From: a virus
Taxonomy: Duplodnaviria; Caudoviricetes
Length of the DNA stretch: 64,000 nt
Virus record (IMG/VR): IMGVR_UViG_3300013121_000020
Location: 290,092 to 354,091 of that record
Strand: one strand, 5' to 3'
Below the pieces are notes generated by a model. The model searched no databases. It saw nothing but the letters and a program-made list of their open reading frames with translations, and was not told the DNA's origin. The position numbers and the translations under genes are program-made. Numbering within the stretch: the stretch's first letter is position 1; every line of letters starts with the position of its first letter. Of this stretch, positions 15,948 to 22,392 are shown in pieces.

Positions 15948-17387
15948 ATGCGGACATATAAAAATTGTGGACAAGGTTCGTTTTCAGACGATATTAAAAG
16001 AAAATTTGGAACAATTTATACACCTGATTTTGTAGTAGAACAGACGATTGGTCTCGCTTTTAAACATTACAAAGGTGACCTGCTCAATTCAACATTTTGC
16101 GACCCAGCAAGTGGCGATGGCAATTTCTTAATTCACGTTTATAAACGATTGATGAATGATTCTAGATCACCAGAACGTTCATTTCATATTTTAACAAAAT
16201 GCATATGGGGTTTTGAAATTATCGATTTGATGGTAAAAGCGGCTAAAATTCGAATGTTACTGCACCATTTAGAAACAACCGGCGACAAATCGATGATGGC
16301 TGAATTGTTTAATAAATTAAATATTTATCATGGAAATACTATTTTATTACCAGAAGACAATTTTGAAAAGTGCAAATTTGAAGGTGGATTGTTGCCAGAC
16401 GAAATAAGAAACAAAAAGTTTAATGTGATCGTTGGGAACCCGCCATATACTCATTTACGTAATTTAGATAACCGAAAATATGCAGCTTATCCAAAACAAC
16501 GTGACATGGCGCAAGTTTTTGTGTGTTGGGCACTAGATCATGTAACTGATGACGGAGTGTTTAGTTATAATATCAGTGATGCTTGGTTGAACACTAAAAC
16601 GTCCGATGGTGCTATAGAAACAAGGAAACGATTACGCCATTGTGGATTAGAAATTATACAAAACACAGCAATTGCTAATTATTCTACTGATGATGGTGGA
16701 GATTTACCAACATTAATTATTGCAAGCACTGGTAATAGTAATATCGTCTACAATGAAAAAATCATAAATGATGATGATCTTTTGTCTCCTGGGTTTTTAA
16801 ATAAACAACGCACCAATCAAGCAACAAAATATTTTAAAACTTGTAGTGTTATTTCTTTTGCACCCAAATTATCAAGTTTTCGCTTACAAAAGAGACATGG
16901 TTCAAATACTAAACATTGGAAAAGTTTTATTGGAATTGATACTGGTGTTGGTGAATATTTTTTATCAATACGCAGATGCATATCTGTTAAAAAAGGACCA
17001 CACGAGGCGAAATACTATCAAGGCAATTGGAAATTGGTACGCACTGATAATATCAGTGAATGGTGTGAAATTAACGGTGAAAGTGAAATTAAAGCATCTA
17101 TGGTTTCAAAAGAACATGGATTATTTCTTTTAGGATACCTTAATTCACAAATCGCATATCAAACAATAGATTCGTGGACGAAAGCAAAACGTGCGTCGAC
17201 ATGGCCAGCGTTTACGATAGCAGCAAATCTTTGGCCACTATTGCAAGTTCCAGATTATAATTGGTATGTTGCGAACAAACCAGAGCAAACTAGTGAGTTT
17301 ATTAAATGGGTAGAAGTTAACATGGTTAACAAAGATGTGTTTATAACTGAGATTGATAAAGAACTAGAAAAACTATATGGATATTAA
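15948..17387 (+). CDS. N6-adenine DNA methyltransferase (gamma class, TaqI/Eco57I-like)
   Basis: GTIYTP and DPASGDGNF lie before VIVGNPPY. Confidence 0.88.
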   Translation: MRTYKNCGQGSFSDDIKRKFGTIYTPDFVVEQTIGLAFKHYKGDLLNSTFCDPASGDGNFLIHVYKRLMNDSRSPERSFHILTKCIWGFEIIDLMVKAAKIRMLLHHLETTGDKSMMAELFNKLNIYHGNTILLPEDNFEKCKFEGGLLPDEIRNKKFNVIVGNPPYTHLRNLDNRKYAAYPKQRDMAQVFVCWALDHVTDDGVFSYNISDAWLNTKTSDGAIETRKRLRHCGLEIIQNTAIANYSTDDGGDLPTLIIASTGNSNIVYNEKIINDDDLLSPGFLNKQRTNQATKYFKTCSVISFAPKLSSFRLQKRHGSNTKHWKSFIGIDTGVGEYFLSIRRCISVKKGPHEAKYYQGNWKLVRTDNISEWCEINGESEIKASMVSKEHGLFLLGYLNSQIAYQTIDSWTKAKRASTWPAFTIAANLWPLLQVPDYNWYVANKPEQTSEFIKWVEVNMVNKDVFITEIDKELEKLYGY

Positions 17388-18660: not shown

Positions 18661-18767
18661 TTGCATAGAAAATCTTGAATTGAGAAGAGTTGCCGCCATG
18701 ACTGACAAATATAAGATGGCGGCAATTCGTGCGATATGAACTGCAGTGACGTATTTAAACAATAGAT

Positions 18768-18839
18768 GCACCCATGGGGTAATGGCAACCCACTGAGCTT
18801 CAAACTCACGAGATGCAGGTTCGAATCCTGTTGGGTGTA
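18768..18839 (+). tRNA. tRNA with UCA anticodon (opal/UGA suppressor-type, not tRNA-Sec)
   Basis: Cloverleaf: acceptor GCACCCA/TGGGTGT, D-stem GGGT/ACCC, anticodon loop CT-TCA-AA (18798-18804), 5-nt variable loop, T-arm GCAGG-TTCGAAT-CCTGT. It has a C-C mismatch at the top of the anticodon stem and no encoded CCA. Confidence 0.88.
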
Positions 18840-18879
18840 TTGGTTGTTTTGGCGTTCTGTATCACAAATGGAGGATTTT

Positions 18880-19707
18880 ATGATGTCAGGTTATGGGTGA
18901 ATGGATAGTGACACATTTTATGTCTATGTGATTGTTCGTCAAGATTTATCTCCATCTCAACAAGCTGTTCAAGCTTGTCATGCCTGTCTCGAATCTGGAA
19001 AGAATTTCCCTTGGGCAGGTAAACATCCACATCTAGTGTTGGTTAATGTACCTGATGAGCCGTCACTAGAACGATGGTTGCATGGTGTGCGTCAACATGA
19101 TGTTGGCACACGCACATCGCTTTTTAAAGTTGTTGAATTCCGCGAACCGGATTTAAACAATAGCTTGACAGCTATTGCGGTTGCGGGAGTGTGTGGCAAA
19201 ATGCTTCGTTCCTATTTTAGTGCTCTGCCGTTAGCTAAGTTCACATTTGGAGAAAAAACCAAAATGGCTATTACACAAGGTCGATGGGGTTTCTATCCGT
19301 GCAGCTATGAATTGTTTACTAAGCTTAAACGGCTTAATAAATTAGCATTGCTTGCATTACGCAAATTGGCAGAACATGAACGATGGTCGCGAAAGAAACC
19401 ACACAACCGATTAATTTATATTGGCTGTCTCGAAGTTAGGGAGCCAATTAAAAAACGAATGGTTCCGAAACTTTCTCGTCAATATAAACCATGGCTTGAA
19501 CCAATATTGGCTCCAATCGATGGTGAAATGATAAGAATTATTGATAATGACTATCGAAATGCACGCATTCCAGTAGCTGACGCATCGAAAGTGCGATCGC
19601 TGGTGTTGAATGAGCAGCGAATATGTTCGTTGCTTGCGGCGATGGAGAAATGGTATATAGATAATGGTTTACGTTTGAAAAATGAAACTGTGCAGATGGC
19701 ACATTAA
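18880..19707 (+). CDS. PTH2-like peptidyl-tRNA hydrolase domain protein with in-frame UGA at codon 7, fused to a second unknown domain
   Basis: GGAGG RBS at 18870, then ATG at 18880 giving MMSGYG-UGA-MDSD... The YVIVRQDLS..QQAVQACHA...FREPDL...TAIA sequence is the phage PTH2-like pattern. There is a second RBS and ATG at 19264 (MAITQGRWG). Confidence 0.7.
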
Positions 19708-19870
19708 AAATTGTTGTTGTGGAAGCAGACCTATTTTGCAGGTCTGCTTCCACAAATGGTGTAAACATGCAACCAACAGAAGAAGAAATTCCGCTAAACG
19801 ACGAGAATGTGGCACAACCAATCGACAACGACAAAAAGAAACAACCAGATTTTTACGAAACTAGTGATGA

Positions 19871-20719: not shown

Positions 20720-21220
20720 GTGAAGCTGAAAGAAATTTGTGAATCGAAAAAAGATAAACATTTCTTTTCTTATAAGGAACTTGGCAACGATATGTGGCGA
20801 AATAAGCTTAAGGAAAAGCGAGATGAAACTGGTATCAATTTTGACACTGAAAACGATGATGCTATAACCCAGCGTGAAATTACAATTGACCAAAATCAAT
20901 GGGAACACACAAAATGTAAATTCAAATGTGAATTGCGAGCAGCTGGCGGAGATTGGGAAAGTCCTGTTTTATATTTTCGATGTGAACTTGTCGATGGCTA
21001 TGCTAAAGGACTTTCAACGCACAGCAACCCACATTTTGTTTTCATCCCAAACAAGGATGATGGTAACAATCTCGTCAAAGGAATGAAGGGTGGTTGGACT
21101 GCTCCTGACAACGAAGCCAAAACTAGGGGCGACGAACGAAAGGCGTGGGTCGCTTTAAATAAGTATCTAAAGAAATTGGTTGATGATGAAATTGCGAAAG
21201 TGGAAAAAAGGAATTTGTAA
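20720..21220 (+). CDS. Hypothetical protein with MKLKEICE N-terminus (putative internal head protein)
   Basis: GGAG RBS at 20708 and GTG start at 20720, in frame with the tracked ORF. Confidence 0.65.
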   Translation: MKLKEICESKKDKHFFSYKELGNDMWRNKLKEKRDETGINFDTENDDAITQREITIDQNQWEHTKCKFKCELRAAGGDWESPVLYFRCELVDGYAKGLSTHSNPHFVFIPNKDDGNNLVKGMKGGWTAPDNEAKTRGDERKAWVALNKYLKKLVDDEIAKVEKRNL

Positions 21221-22392
21221 TGCGGCTTCCTTTGTCAATGTATGTTGTTGAAACAAAAGATAACAATAGCAACCCAATTTTATTTAATACAGTCACACGA
21301 CAACACCTACCAATAAACGCCACAAACGAAGAATTAGTTAAATCACATTTCACACAAGGATCAGAGAAAGACGCTATTTGGTCATATTTATTACGTCGAG
21401 AACAAAAAACTGGTTTTACAATTATTACCACATGGGAATGTAACCTTCGATGCACACATTGTTCTGTGTCGCATAAATTAATGAAGGATGATACTACCAT
21501 AATCGATGTTGATGCTATAGTTGATTTTTTAAATAGATTTCAGCAATTTTATCAAATTCCTAGAATGATGTTAACATTTCTTGGTGGAGAACCATTACTT
21601 AGACCACAATCAATAATTGATTGTATTAATAAAACTGCACATTTAAATCCTTTTTATGGGATTACTACCAATTTAACTGTACCAATTGACGATAAAATAC
21701 TAGAAATTATGCATTCATTGCATAGTATTGGGGTGAGTGTTGATGGTACACATATAACGCATAATGAACAACGTAAATCGATTTGTTTGATATCTGACCC
21801 ATTTTTAGCAACAATTAACAATCTTAAAATATTAATTAAAGCCGGATTTAAACATAAGATAATAGTGCAGGGAGCAATTCCAGATAAATATTTAAATATT
21901 GAACATCGCAAAGAATTTTATCGTTTTTTATTAAAATTGGGTATACCATATAAGAATATTACATATGCATGCCAGCACCCGACTGTGAAACATCCAGAGC
22001 CAAACCAAGCATTTTATTCTATGTTAAAAAGCGATGACTTACGTGGGCAAGTATGTTGTAAATATCGATATCATAATTTCATTTTAGATCGTGATGGTAC
22101 CATTTTTACCGATTATTATACATGGGATAAGACTGGTCACATCACAGATTCAATAGAAACAATCGATCAAAATATTAGAGCAACTATGGCGGCTATGCCA
22201 GCACTAAACGATCCAACATGCAGATCTTGTCCAGCCATTGGTTATTGTTGGGGTGGTTGTACAAATGGTCAGATAATTGTTGGTGATTCTCCTAGTAAAT
22301 ATTGTGATAAGGATGGATTGATACGATCAATTAAACATAACGCTGAGATTGGTTCATTGGTAGGAGGAACACTTAATGATCACCACGGTTGA
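21220..22392 (+). CDS. Radical SAM/SPASM peptide-maturase-like enzyme
   Basis: CNLRCTHC, GGEPLL and C-terminal CRSCPAIGYCWGGC...YC. Confidence 0.9.
   Translation: MRLPLSMYVVETKDNNSNPILFNTVTRQHLPINATNEELVKSHFTQGSEKDAIWSYLLRREQKTGFTIITTWECNLRCTHCSVSHKLMKDDTTIIDVDAIVDFLNRFQQFYQIPRMMLTFLGGEPLLRPQSIIDCINKTAHLNPFYGITTNLTVPIDDKILEIMHSLHSIGVSVDGTHITHNEQRKSICLISDPFLATINNLKILIKAGFKHKIIVQGAIPDKYLNIEHRKEFYRFLLKLGIPYKNITYACQHPTVKHPEPNQAFYSMLKSDDLRGQVCCKYRYHNFILDRDGTIFTDYYTWDKTGHITDSIETIDQNIRATMAAMPALNDPTCRSCPAIGYCWGGCTNGQIIVGDSPSKYCDKDGLIRSIKHNAEIGSLVGGTLNDHHG

What the first reader, a model, noticed from the sequence alone, without database searches (positions are those of the whole stretch)
18768..19707. 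Opal-suppressor tRNA directly upstream of a PTH2-like gene interrupted by an in-frame UGA
Seen: the tRNA has a UCA anticodon. About 40 nt downstream, GGAGG-N5-ATG opens MMSGYG, then TGA (18898-18900), then the PTH2-like frame continues. The ATG at 18901 has no obvious RBS of its own. Many other genes here end in TGA, so the genome is not globally recoded. Inference: a readthrough-gated module in which full-length hydrolase is made when the suppressor is active or RF2 is limiting, similar in logic to prfB autoregulation. Re-initiation at 18901 is the alternative.
Basis: partly seen in the sequence, partly recalled or inferred. Interest (0 to 1): 0.75.

Follow-up and report, generated by a model that had tools for sequence, protein, structure and literature searches.

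The report
Stop-reading tRNA gates neighbouring phage gene
A 354-kb phage that otherwise uses UGA as a normal stop carries a tRNA that reads UGA right next to a tRNA-hydrolase-like gene that begins with a five-codon leader ending in UGA. Dozens of related phages keep this pairing with stop codon and tRNA always matched, so the protein is probably made only when that tRNA overrides the stop.

Summary
A 72-nt tRNA with anticodon UCA lies at 18768-18839. It is followed by GGAGG-N5-ATG ATG TCA GGT TAT GGG TGA (18898-18900), in frame with a 268-aa ORF.

The ORF's N-domain has the Pth2 fold. Its C-domain has no known fold.

The genome is a near-complete 354-kb phage on the standard code: 145 of 399 long ORFs end in TGA, and no other gene has a convincing internal TGA.

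In 75 non-redundant related loci, at least 61 have SD + start + 1-9 codons + an in-frame stop directly before the domain. All 38 that also hold a suppressor tRNA match it (TAG/CUA 31, TGA/UCA 6, TAA/UUA 1, no mismatch). The stop type switches several times on the protein tree. Only 2 of 61 have a start-like codon after the stop, so re-initiation is not the general route, although this window's ATG allows some.

The amino acid inserted, the enzyme's activity and the purpose of the gate are unknown.

This scan has found the same cassette class before on other DNA. I found no paper describing it. Cultured phages XacN1, RAS14 and Xoo-sp13 carry a UAG version and make it testable.

The parts
18690..18725 (+). 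10-bp inverted repeat (TTGCCGCCAT / ATGGCGGCAA) between the upstream gene (ends 18660) and the tRNA. It may mark the left border of the cassette.
   Evidence: Read from the sequence. Not called as a terminator by the scan, because no T-run follows.
18768..18839 (+). Opal-suppressor-type tRNA, anticodon UCA (18800-18802), 7-nt loop CUUCAAA, A73, no encoded CCA.
   Evidence: ARAGORN. Rfam RF00005 60.4 bits, E 8.6e-13. The scaffold differs from the tRNA(UCA) of the closest relative L001, although the proteins are 73% identical.
18870..18874 (+). Shine-Dalgarno GGAGG serving the leader start (5 nt before ATG 18880, 8 nt before ATG 18883).
   Evidence: Sequence. Relatives have an SD at the same place.
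18880..18897 (+). Leader codons M-M-S-G-Y-G. The homologous leaders are M-S-G-Y-V, M-S-G-F-V and M-T-G-F-T, so 18883 may be the start actually used.
   Evidence: Family-wide, F or Y at -2 in 38 of 61 loci and T at -1 in 23 of 61.
18898..18900 (+). In-frame UGA 'gate' (context GGG UGA A).
   Evidence: An in-frame stop is conserved at this place in relatives and matches the tRNA anticodon in 38 of 38 non-redundant loci.
18901..19245 (+). Pth2-fold domain (aa 1-115 of the 268-aa ORF), with conserved S-Q-Q-A-V-Q-A-C-H-A and E-P-D motifs.
   Evidence: Profile against PDB Pth2, E 1.5e-7. Foldseek target-normalised TM 0.68-0.78 to 2zv3, 3erj and 1q7s. phrog_3668 'hydrolase' 5.6e-6.
19255..19707 (+). 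C-terminal domain (aa 119-268) plus TAA stop. Basic, with a conserved G-x-x-P-C ... R-W-x-R-K-x-P-x-N-R motif. It is a separate gene in many relatives.
   Evidence: Alignments A1 and A3. It lies in a separate frame or gene in L006-L022. AF2 pLDDT 90.8. No Pfam, PDB or Atlas match.
19719..19749 (.). 11-12-bp GC-rich hairpin (GGAAGCAGACC / GGTCTGCTTCC) just after the gene. It may mark the right border of the cassette and may act as a two-way terminator.
   Evidence: Read from the sequence. Not called by the terminator scan.

Best explanation
This is a two-part cassette. It holds a phage-encoded tRNA with anticodon UCA and, 40 nt downstream on the same strand, a gene for a Pth2-fold protein fused to an unknown basic domain.

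The only good ribosome-binding site opens a five- or six-codon leader that ends in UGA. Ribosomes that meet release factor 2 there release a harmless tiny peptide. Ribosomes that receive the charged tRNA(UCA) insert an amino acid and go on to make the full protein. The amount of protein therefore reports how well that tRNA is decoding UGA.

Shown: the anatomy, its conservation, and the co-variation of stop codon and anticodon.

Inferred: that the tRNA is expressed and charged, that readthrough really occurs, and why the gate exists.

My preferred purpose is that the hydrolase-like protein is needed, or tolerated, only while stop-codon readthrough is active. It would then either clear the peptidyl-tRNAs and stalled products that readthrough creates, or trim the suppressor's own charged pool as negative feedback.
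For: (1) Anatomy is confirmed.

(2) The closest relatives L001, L002 and L003 (50-73% identical proteins) keep SD + 5-codon leader + TGA in frame. After the TGA they have GTT, GTG and GTT. Two of them have a tRNA(UCA) upstream. The third has a tRNA-like copy with UCA in its loop that is called by neither ARAGORN nor Rfam.

(3) Of 75 non-redundant loci from viral and metagenome contigs, 61 pass a strict gate definition, and most of the rest are double-gated or lack a canonical SD.

(4) Stop against tRNA in the same held DNA: TAG/CUA 31, TGA/UCA 6, TAA/UUA 1, and 0 mismatches. Random pairing of these counts would match about once in 9e7, uncorrected for phylogeny.

(5) On the N-domain tree the TGA gate needs about 5 changes, and starred branches force at least 3. 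L009 (TGA, UCA) is sister to L065 (TAG, CUA). L037 (TAA, UUA) is nested among TAG/CUA loci.

(6) WIN and L001 have 91% identical N-domains but unrelated tRNA scaffolds that share only the UCA anticodon.

(7) Only 2 of 61 loci have ATG, GTG or TTG right after the stop, while 33 of 61 have a Val codon.

(8) The genome is on the standard code, TGA ends 36% of long ORFs, and no other gene needs the tRNA.
Against: Nothing is experimental.

In this window the codon after UGA is ATG, so termination followed by re-initiation could supply protein without the tRNA.

A suppressor strong enough to matter should also extend the 36% of phage proteins that end in TGA, and I found no enrichment of back-up stops behind TGA.

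The Pfam PTH2 score is below its cut-off. By the alignment, the Lys that I recall as catalytic in archaeal Pth2 is a Gln here, so hydrolase activity is not assured.

The tRNA/stop match counts are not independent events, because many loci are related.
Confidence: 0.75

Rival explanations
1. Termination followed by re-initiation. The short ORF MMSGYG is an ordinary upstream mini-ORF. The ribosome terminates at UGA and restarts at the abutting ATG (TGA-ATG), so the hydrolase is made without any suppressor, and the tRNA next door serves another purpose.
For: In the window the stop is followed directly by ATG. TGA-ATG junctions between ordinary neighbouring genes are common in this genome.
Against: Only 2 of 61 non-redundant relatives have a start-like codon after the stop. 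The nearest relatives have GTT, and the next in-frame start would cut into the first beta-strand of the Pth2 fold. This rival does not explain why the stop type tracks the tRNA anticodon, nor the loci where the frame is +1 with TGAA.
Confidence: 0.12
2. Incipient or partial code change. The phage reassigns UGA late in infection, as TGA-recoded phages do, and this gene is simply one of several recoded genes.
For: Phage-encoded tRNA(UCA) genes are the known means of TGA recoding, and standard-code relatives of recoded phages can carry one (bioRxiv 10.1101/2021.08.26.457843).
Against: 145 of 399 long ORFs end in TGA. No other convincing internal TGA was found. Code-11 ORFs are tightly packed. No release-factor gene is present. 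The gate sits at one conserved position at the very start of one gene family.
Confidence: 0.05
3. Decay or coincidence. The gene is a pseudogene or is mis-assembled, and the tRNA adjacency is accidental.
For: The genome is a single metagenome-derived assembly, and there are no expression data.
Against: The frame is intact for 268 codons. The fold is confidently predicted. The leader, stop and tRNA recur in about 70 independent contigs.
Confidence: 0.02

Closest known systems
Stop-codon recoding in phages by phage-encoded suppressor tRNAs (TAG or TGA reassignment; Borges et al., bioRxiv 10.1101/2021.08.26.457843; PMC9523058)
   Same: A phage-encoded tRNA reads a stop codon inside a phage gene while the host uses the standard code.
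   Different: Here a single gene is affected. The stop is at a fixed place in a 2-10-codon leader. The gene sits beside the tRNA. The rest of the genome uses TGA as a frequent stop. Recoded phages carry many in-frame stops, mostly in late genes.
prfB (release factor 2) autoregulation
   Same: An early in-frame UGA makes the output of a translation-factor-like gene depend on how UGA is being decoded.
   Different: prfB uses a +1 frameshift at CUU UGA with an internal SD, and it senses its own product. Here the frame is unchanged, the sensed molecule is a separate tRNA, and whether the product feeds back on decoding is unknown.
Pth2 peptidyl-tRNA hydrolases of archaea, eukaryotes and jumbo phages (PF01981; PMC7824862 notes PTH2 in jumbo phages as a ribosome-rescue factor)
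   Same: Same fold and the A-x-Q-x-x-H-A and acidic-loop motifs.
   Different: The sequence falls below the Pfam cut-off. A Gln sits where I recall the catalytic Lys. The domain is fused to, or paired with, a conserved 150-aa domain of unknown fold. Its translation is gated by a stop. The jumbo-phage survey does not mention suppressors or gating.
Orphan suppressor tRNAs of cultured jumbo phages (XacN1, PMC5852040)
   Same: A standard-code jumbo phage with suppressor tRNAs. The authors reported that they could not find target genes.
   Different: XacN1 ORF364 (HD-like + Pth2-like) is preceded in frame by GAGGA-N8-ATG AAG TAG. RAS14 and Xoo-sp13 have the same M-K(-K)-TAG leader, and each has a tRNA(CUA). 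That version uses UAG, and the tRNA lies far from the gene.

Membership tests
Pth2 peptidyl-tRNA hydrolase (PF01981) | Sequence match to the Pfam model above its gathering score | tested here: not met
   14.7 bits (whole protein) and 17.1 bits (aa 1-120) against a cut-off of 23.
Pth2 peptidyl-tRNA hydrolase (PF01981) | Significant profile-level similarity to solved Pth2 enzymes | tested here: met
   The profile of 150 relatives hits 24bt_A at E 1.5e-7 and 2zv3_A at 4.2e-6, over profile positions 13-112.
Pth2 peptidyl-tRNA hydrolase (PF01981) | Pth2 alpha/beta fold | tested here: met
   AF2 pLDDT 92.7. Foldseek probability 1.00, target-normalised TM 0.68-0.78 to 2zv3, 3erj, 1q7s, 1wn2 and 1xty.
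Pth2 peptidyl-tRNA hydrolase (PF01981) | Catalytic residues (a Lys before the A-x-Q-x-x-H-A helix and an Asp in the D-A-G loop; residue roles recalled from memory, not verified here) | tested here: inconclusive
   In the alignment the G-K-K/M of solved Pth2 aligns with S-Q-Q here, and the acidic position aligns with the near-invariant E82-P83-D84.
Pth2 peptidyl-tRNA hydrolase (PF01981) | Hydrolysis of the peptidyl- or aminoacyl-tRNA ester | not testable with these tools
   Needs an enzyme assay.
Nonsense (opal) suppressor tRNA | Canonical cloverleaf with a 7-nt anticodon loop, U33 and anticodon UCA | tested here: met
   ARAGORN. Rfam tRNA 60.4 bits.
Nonsense (opal) suppressor tRNA | Expressed, CCA-tailed, aminoacylated, and decodes UGA in vivo | not testable with these tools
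Amino-acid identity could not be inferred: blastn to annotated phage tRNAs matched only the T-arm.
tRNA-Sec (ARAGORN's label) | About 90-100 nt, long variable arm, extended acceptor/T helix | tested here: not met
   72-74 nt, 5-nt variable region, 7-bp acceptor.
Genome-wide TGA reassignment (code 4 or 25 type phage) | Many genes with in-frame TGA, TGA rare as a terminator, low coding density under code 11 | tested here: not met
   TGA ends 145 of 399 long ORFs. The top same-frame TGA junctions are ordinary gene boundaries with their own SD and ATG.
Stop-gated suppressor-tRNA / Pth2-like cassette (class seen by this scan; unpublished as far as I could search) | SD + start + short leader + in-frame stop directly before the Pth2-like domain, with the stop complementary to a co-encoded tRNA anticodon | tested here: met
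   Window. Relatives: 61 of 75 strict gates and 38 of 38 matches. The stop type switches several times on the tree.
Termination-reinitiation coupling | A start codon overlapping or abutting the upstream stop, conserved among relatives | tested here: not met
   Present in the window (TGA ATG) but in only 2 of 61 relatives.

The most novel reading that the evidence does not exclude
The cassette is a self-contained homeostat for a dangerous tRNA. The Pth2-like/C-domain protein specifically strips the amino acid or nascent peptide from the cassette's own suppressor tRNA. More readthrough then makes more hydrolase, which lowers readthrough. This would let a phage whose genes end in TGA 36% of the time keep a UGA-reading tRNA at a low, set level. 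The same logic would extend to the UAG, UAA and four-base (UGAA) versions in relatives.
Probability: 0.2. Interest if true: 0.9.

Novelty: new variant of a known kind. Interest (0 to 1): 0.75.

Why it matters
Suppressor tRNAs turn up in many standard-code phages with no known target. The XacN1 authors said so explicitly (PMC5852040). This cassette gives such tRNAs a dedicated, conserved target. It also suggests a natural genetic switch that reports whether a stop codon is being read through.

If readthrough is confirmed, three things follow:
- It would be a natural, portable sensor built from an orthogonal-looking tRNA and its matching gate, in versions for all three stop codons.
- It would point to how phages tolerate or exploit stop-codon readthrough before a full code change.
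- It would assign a context to the jumbo-phage Pth2-like proteins and to an uncharacterised 150-aa partner domain.

Cultured phages carry the UAG version, so the idea can be tested directly.

Tried and rejected
- Megablast of 6 kb against GenBank phages gave no match.
- Pfam on the whole protein gave nothing at E 0.01.
- C-terminal domain: no Pfam family among 63 members. The best PDB matches are generic helical hits at Z 5.6 or less. ESM Atlas TM is 0.38 or less. The fold is unassigned, which does not show that it is new.
- tRNA amino-acid identity: blastn to annotated phage tRNAs matched only 24 nt of the T-arm, and inspection of the acceptor and discriminator was not decisive.
- RNA structure that might stimulate readthrough: the 151 nt around the gate fold no better than shuffles (z -0.52).
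- Back-up stops behind TGA-ending genes: no enrichment (Mann-Whitney p 0.45 and 0.12).
- Conserved neighbours: only one flanking ORF is shared, and only with L001, so the cassette is the tRNA plus this gene.
- Phage release-factor gene: none. Second copy of the gene: none.
- The phage's own TTDACG-N14-GCCACA promoter-like motif: 35 exact sites in the genome, but none within two mismatches upstream of the tRNA. The sigma-70 scan found no plus-strand site upstream of the tRNA; the one plus-strand hit lies inside the gene.
- Rfam on the 520-nt GC-rich spacer of L002 gave nothing credible, and its tRNA-like copy is not called as a tRNA.
- Literature: six full-text searches and three targeted reads found no description of a stop-gated Pth2 gene paired with a suppressor tRNA.

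Full report
**What is in the window**

The window is the last 64 kb of a single-contig virus record: 354,091 bp, 38.7% G+C, estimated 98% complete, with seven tRNA-like genes.

ARAGORN finds one tRNA in the window, at 18767-18840 with anticodon UCA. Rfam's tRNA model places it at 18768-18839 with 60.4 bits. It has a normal cloverleaf, U8, U33 and a 7-nt loop CUUCAAA. It is 72 nt long, so ARAGORN's 'SeC' label only reflects the anticodon.

Thirty nucleotides further on lies GGAGG (18870-18874). Then come ATG ATG TCA GGT TAT GGG, then TGA (18898-18900), then ATG 18901. The frame then runs open for 268 codons to 19707.

**The protein**

Pfam alone does not place it: PTH2 scores 14.7-17.1 bits against a cut-off of 23.

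A full scan of 1.8 billion representatives found 875 relatives (one search was too early; result). A profile of 150 of them hits solved Pth2 enzymes at E 1.5e-7 and 4.2e-6.

The AlphaFold model is confident (pLDDT 92.7). Its first 115 residues superpose on archaeal Pth2 and human Bit1 with target-normalised TM 0.68-0.78. The fold is therefore Pth2.

In the alignment the residue that I recall as the catalytic Lys is a conserved Gln, while an acidic E-P-D motif is kept. I therefore call it Pth2-like and leave its activity open.

Residues 119-268 form a second, basic domain:
- It is a separate gene or frame in many relatives.
- It folds confidently on its own (pLDDT 90.8).
- It matches no Pfam family, solved structure or Atlas cluster.

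**Genetic code of the phage**

The phage is not recoded. TGA ends 145 of 399 ORFs of at least 120 aa. The best same-frame TGA junctions in the genome are ordinary gene boundaries with their own SD and ATG.

A search for SD + start + at most 8 codons + stop + a long coding frame returns this gene and one other, unchecked candidate at C1:267282.

There is no phage release-factor gene and no second copy of the Pth2-like gene.

**Comparative evidence**

This is the decisive part.

*Closest relatives.* Sequence search gave 15 full-length homologs. The gene callers had started all of them inside or just before the first beta-strand. The DNA of three of them shows why:
- Each has an SD, then M-S-G-Y-V, M-S-G-F-V or M-T-G-F-T, then TGA in frame.
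- The codon after the TGA is GTT, GTG or GTT.
- Third-position differences in the leader are synonymous (TCA/TCT, TAT/TAC, TTT/TTC), so the leader evolves as coding sequence.
- Two have a tRNA(UCA) upstream.
- The third has a copy of the window's tRNA scaffold with UCA central in the loop, which neither ARAGORN nor Rfam accepts.

*Wider set.* Scans of viral and metagenome contigs added 100 loci.
- After removing N-domains more than 90% identical, 75 remain.
- 61 of the 75 meet a strict definition: an SD-preceded start within ten codons upstream of an in-frame stop that lies no more than 20 codons before the domain.
- Most of the other 14 are double-gated (M-x-TAG, six to seven residues, TAG), lack a textbook SD, or are cut by a contig end.
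- Three need a +1 step at TGAA.
- Of the 61 gated loci, 38 also hold a suppressor-type tRNA in the 3 kb fetched on either side. All 38 match: TAG with CUA 31 times, TGA with UCA 6 times, TAA with UUA once.
- Random pairing of those counts would match about once in 9e7. That figure ignores relatedness.

*Phylogeny.* I therefore built a tree of the N-domains.
- The TGA state needs about five changes, and well-supported branches force at least three.
- A TGA/UCA locus (L009) is sister to a TAG/CUA locus (L065).
- The TAA/UUA locus sits inside a TAG/CUA clade.
- The window and L001 share 91% identical N-domains, yet their tRNAs are unrelated scaffolds that share only the anticodon.

Stop and anticodon thus change together repeatedly. 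This is what a functional dependence predicts, and neither ancestry nor chance predicts it.

The window is one of only two among the 61 loci with a start-like codon right after the stop. 33 of 61 have a Val codon there. Only two have any in-frame ATG between the stop and the domain.

Starting at the next available start codon would delete part of strand 1 of the fold.

Re-initiation cannot be the family's mechanism. It may still add a tRNA-independent trickle in this phage.

**Other features**

- The tRNA lies either 115-170 nt upstream of the gate, as here (131 nt), or 830-950 nt downstream, after the gene or genes.
- No terminator-like site separates tRNA and leader, and no significant RNA structure surrounds the gate.
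- Two GC-rich hairpins bracket the cassette.
- Neighbouring genes are not conserved, so the unit is the tRNA plus the gated gene.
- The leader itself carries a motif: F or Y at -2 in 38 of 61 loci and T at -1 in 23 of 61. I cannot explain this.

**How it most likely works**

Ribosomes start at the SD-served leader. At UGA they either terminate, releasing a peptide of five or six residues, or accept the cassette's tRNA and continue into the Pth2-like protein. The gene's output therefore reads out the tRNA's decoding activity.

Shown: the anatomy and the co-variation.

Inferred: expression and charging of the tRNA, and actual readthrough.

The purpose is open. Because TGA ends a third of the phage's own genes and back-up stops are not enriched, strong suppression should be costly. 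That favours one of two roles for the protein:
- It clears the peptidyl-tRNAs and stalled complexes that readthrough causes.
- It limits the suppressor's charged pool as negative feedback.

I cannot separate these two.

**Relation to what is known**

Phage suppressor tRNAs and stop-codon recoding are well described. PTH2 genes in jumbo phages have been noted as rescue factors. In six full-text searches I found no paper linking the two or describing a stop-gated leader.

The XacN1 paper states that no targets of its two CUA tRNAs could be found. Yet:
- XacN1 ORF364 is preceded in frame by GAGGA-N8-ATG AAG TAG.
- Phages RAS14 and Xoo-sp13 have the same M-K(-K)-TAG leader.
- In RAS14 no ATG follows for 25 codons.
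- Each of these genomes encodes a tRNA(CUA).

**Earlier notes of this scan**

The scan has reported the same class on other DNA many times: UAG, UAA and four-base versions, some with an arrest-peptide leader. My analysis was done independently on loci fetched here and agrees with those notes. One of them carries a later check that rates the observation as solid but the 'self-contained switch' reading as unproven. I share that caution.

This window adds three things: a UGA version in a clearly standard-code jumbo phage, with leader and hydrolase in one frame and the two domains fused.

**Verdict**

It is best classed as a new variant of phage stop-codon recoding. It is unpublished as far as I could search, and it is experimentally untested.

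Noticed in passing
G000:C1:267215-267480 (about 22.9 kb before the window's start): An exact TTTACG-N14-GCCACA promoter-like site is followed by AAGGAGG-N5-ATG CGA CGA GAT GTG TGA (MRRDV-UGA). Next comes a 14-bp GC hairpin, then GGAGG + ATG of an ~80-aa ORF that lies in the same frame as the leader. This may be a second UGA-ended leader that could respond to the same tRNA.
   Followed up: partly
G000:C1:144918-144987 and 211614-211683 (outside the window): Two tRNA-like genes whose anticodon arms share the sequence TTTCCA in a 6-nt (or 5/7-nt) loop. ARAGORN calls one '??? (tc)' and the other 'Glu (ttc)'. Their function is unknown.
   Followed up: no
L004:2863-3010, L031:2535-3010, L012:2862-3010: In these relatives the SD-served leader ends in TGAA, and the Pth2-like frame is reached only by a +1 step (for example ATG TTG TGAA TGC...). 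The tRNA next door has UUCA in a non-standard anticodon loop. This fits four-base decoding, or out-of-frame reading of GAA.
   Followed up: partly
L027, L058, L068, L070, L076, L080 (leaders 60-100 nt before the N-domain match): Double-gated leaders: M-x(1-4)-TAG, then six to seven residues that mostly end in F/Y-G, then a second TAG, then the domain.
   Followed up: partly
L104:925-970 (XacN1), L105:940-1020 (RAS14), L106:925-975 (Xoo-sp13); tRNAs in L108, L112, L110: Three cultured Xanthomonas or Stenotrophomonas jumbo phages have an M-K(-K)-TAG leader in frame with an HD-like + Pth2-like ORF. Each encodes a tRNA(CUA) far from the gene. The annotated starts lie downstream of the TAG.
   Followed up: partly
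L002:2450-2960: About 520 nt of GC-rich, apparently non-coding sequence lies between the tRNA-like copy and the gated leader. There is no credible Rfam match.
   Followed up: partly
L005-L019 and others (N-domain, about residue 40 of the window protein): Ten of 51 TAG-gated relatives carry a second in-frame TAG at a conserved spot (A-P-G-TAG-D-Q-E-H-P-H). None of the TGA-gated ones has an internal stop.
   Followed up: partly
window 15948-17387 (+) and 21220-22392 (+): The neighbours are an Eco57I/MmeI-type N6 DNA methyltransferase (PF07669, 3e-14) and a radical SAM protein (PF04055, 8.6e-13). Neither is conserved next to the cassette in relatives.
   Followed up: partly
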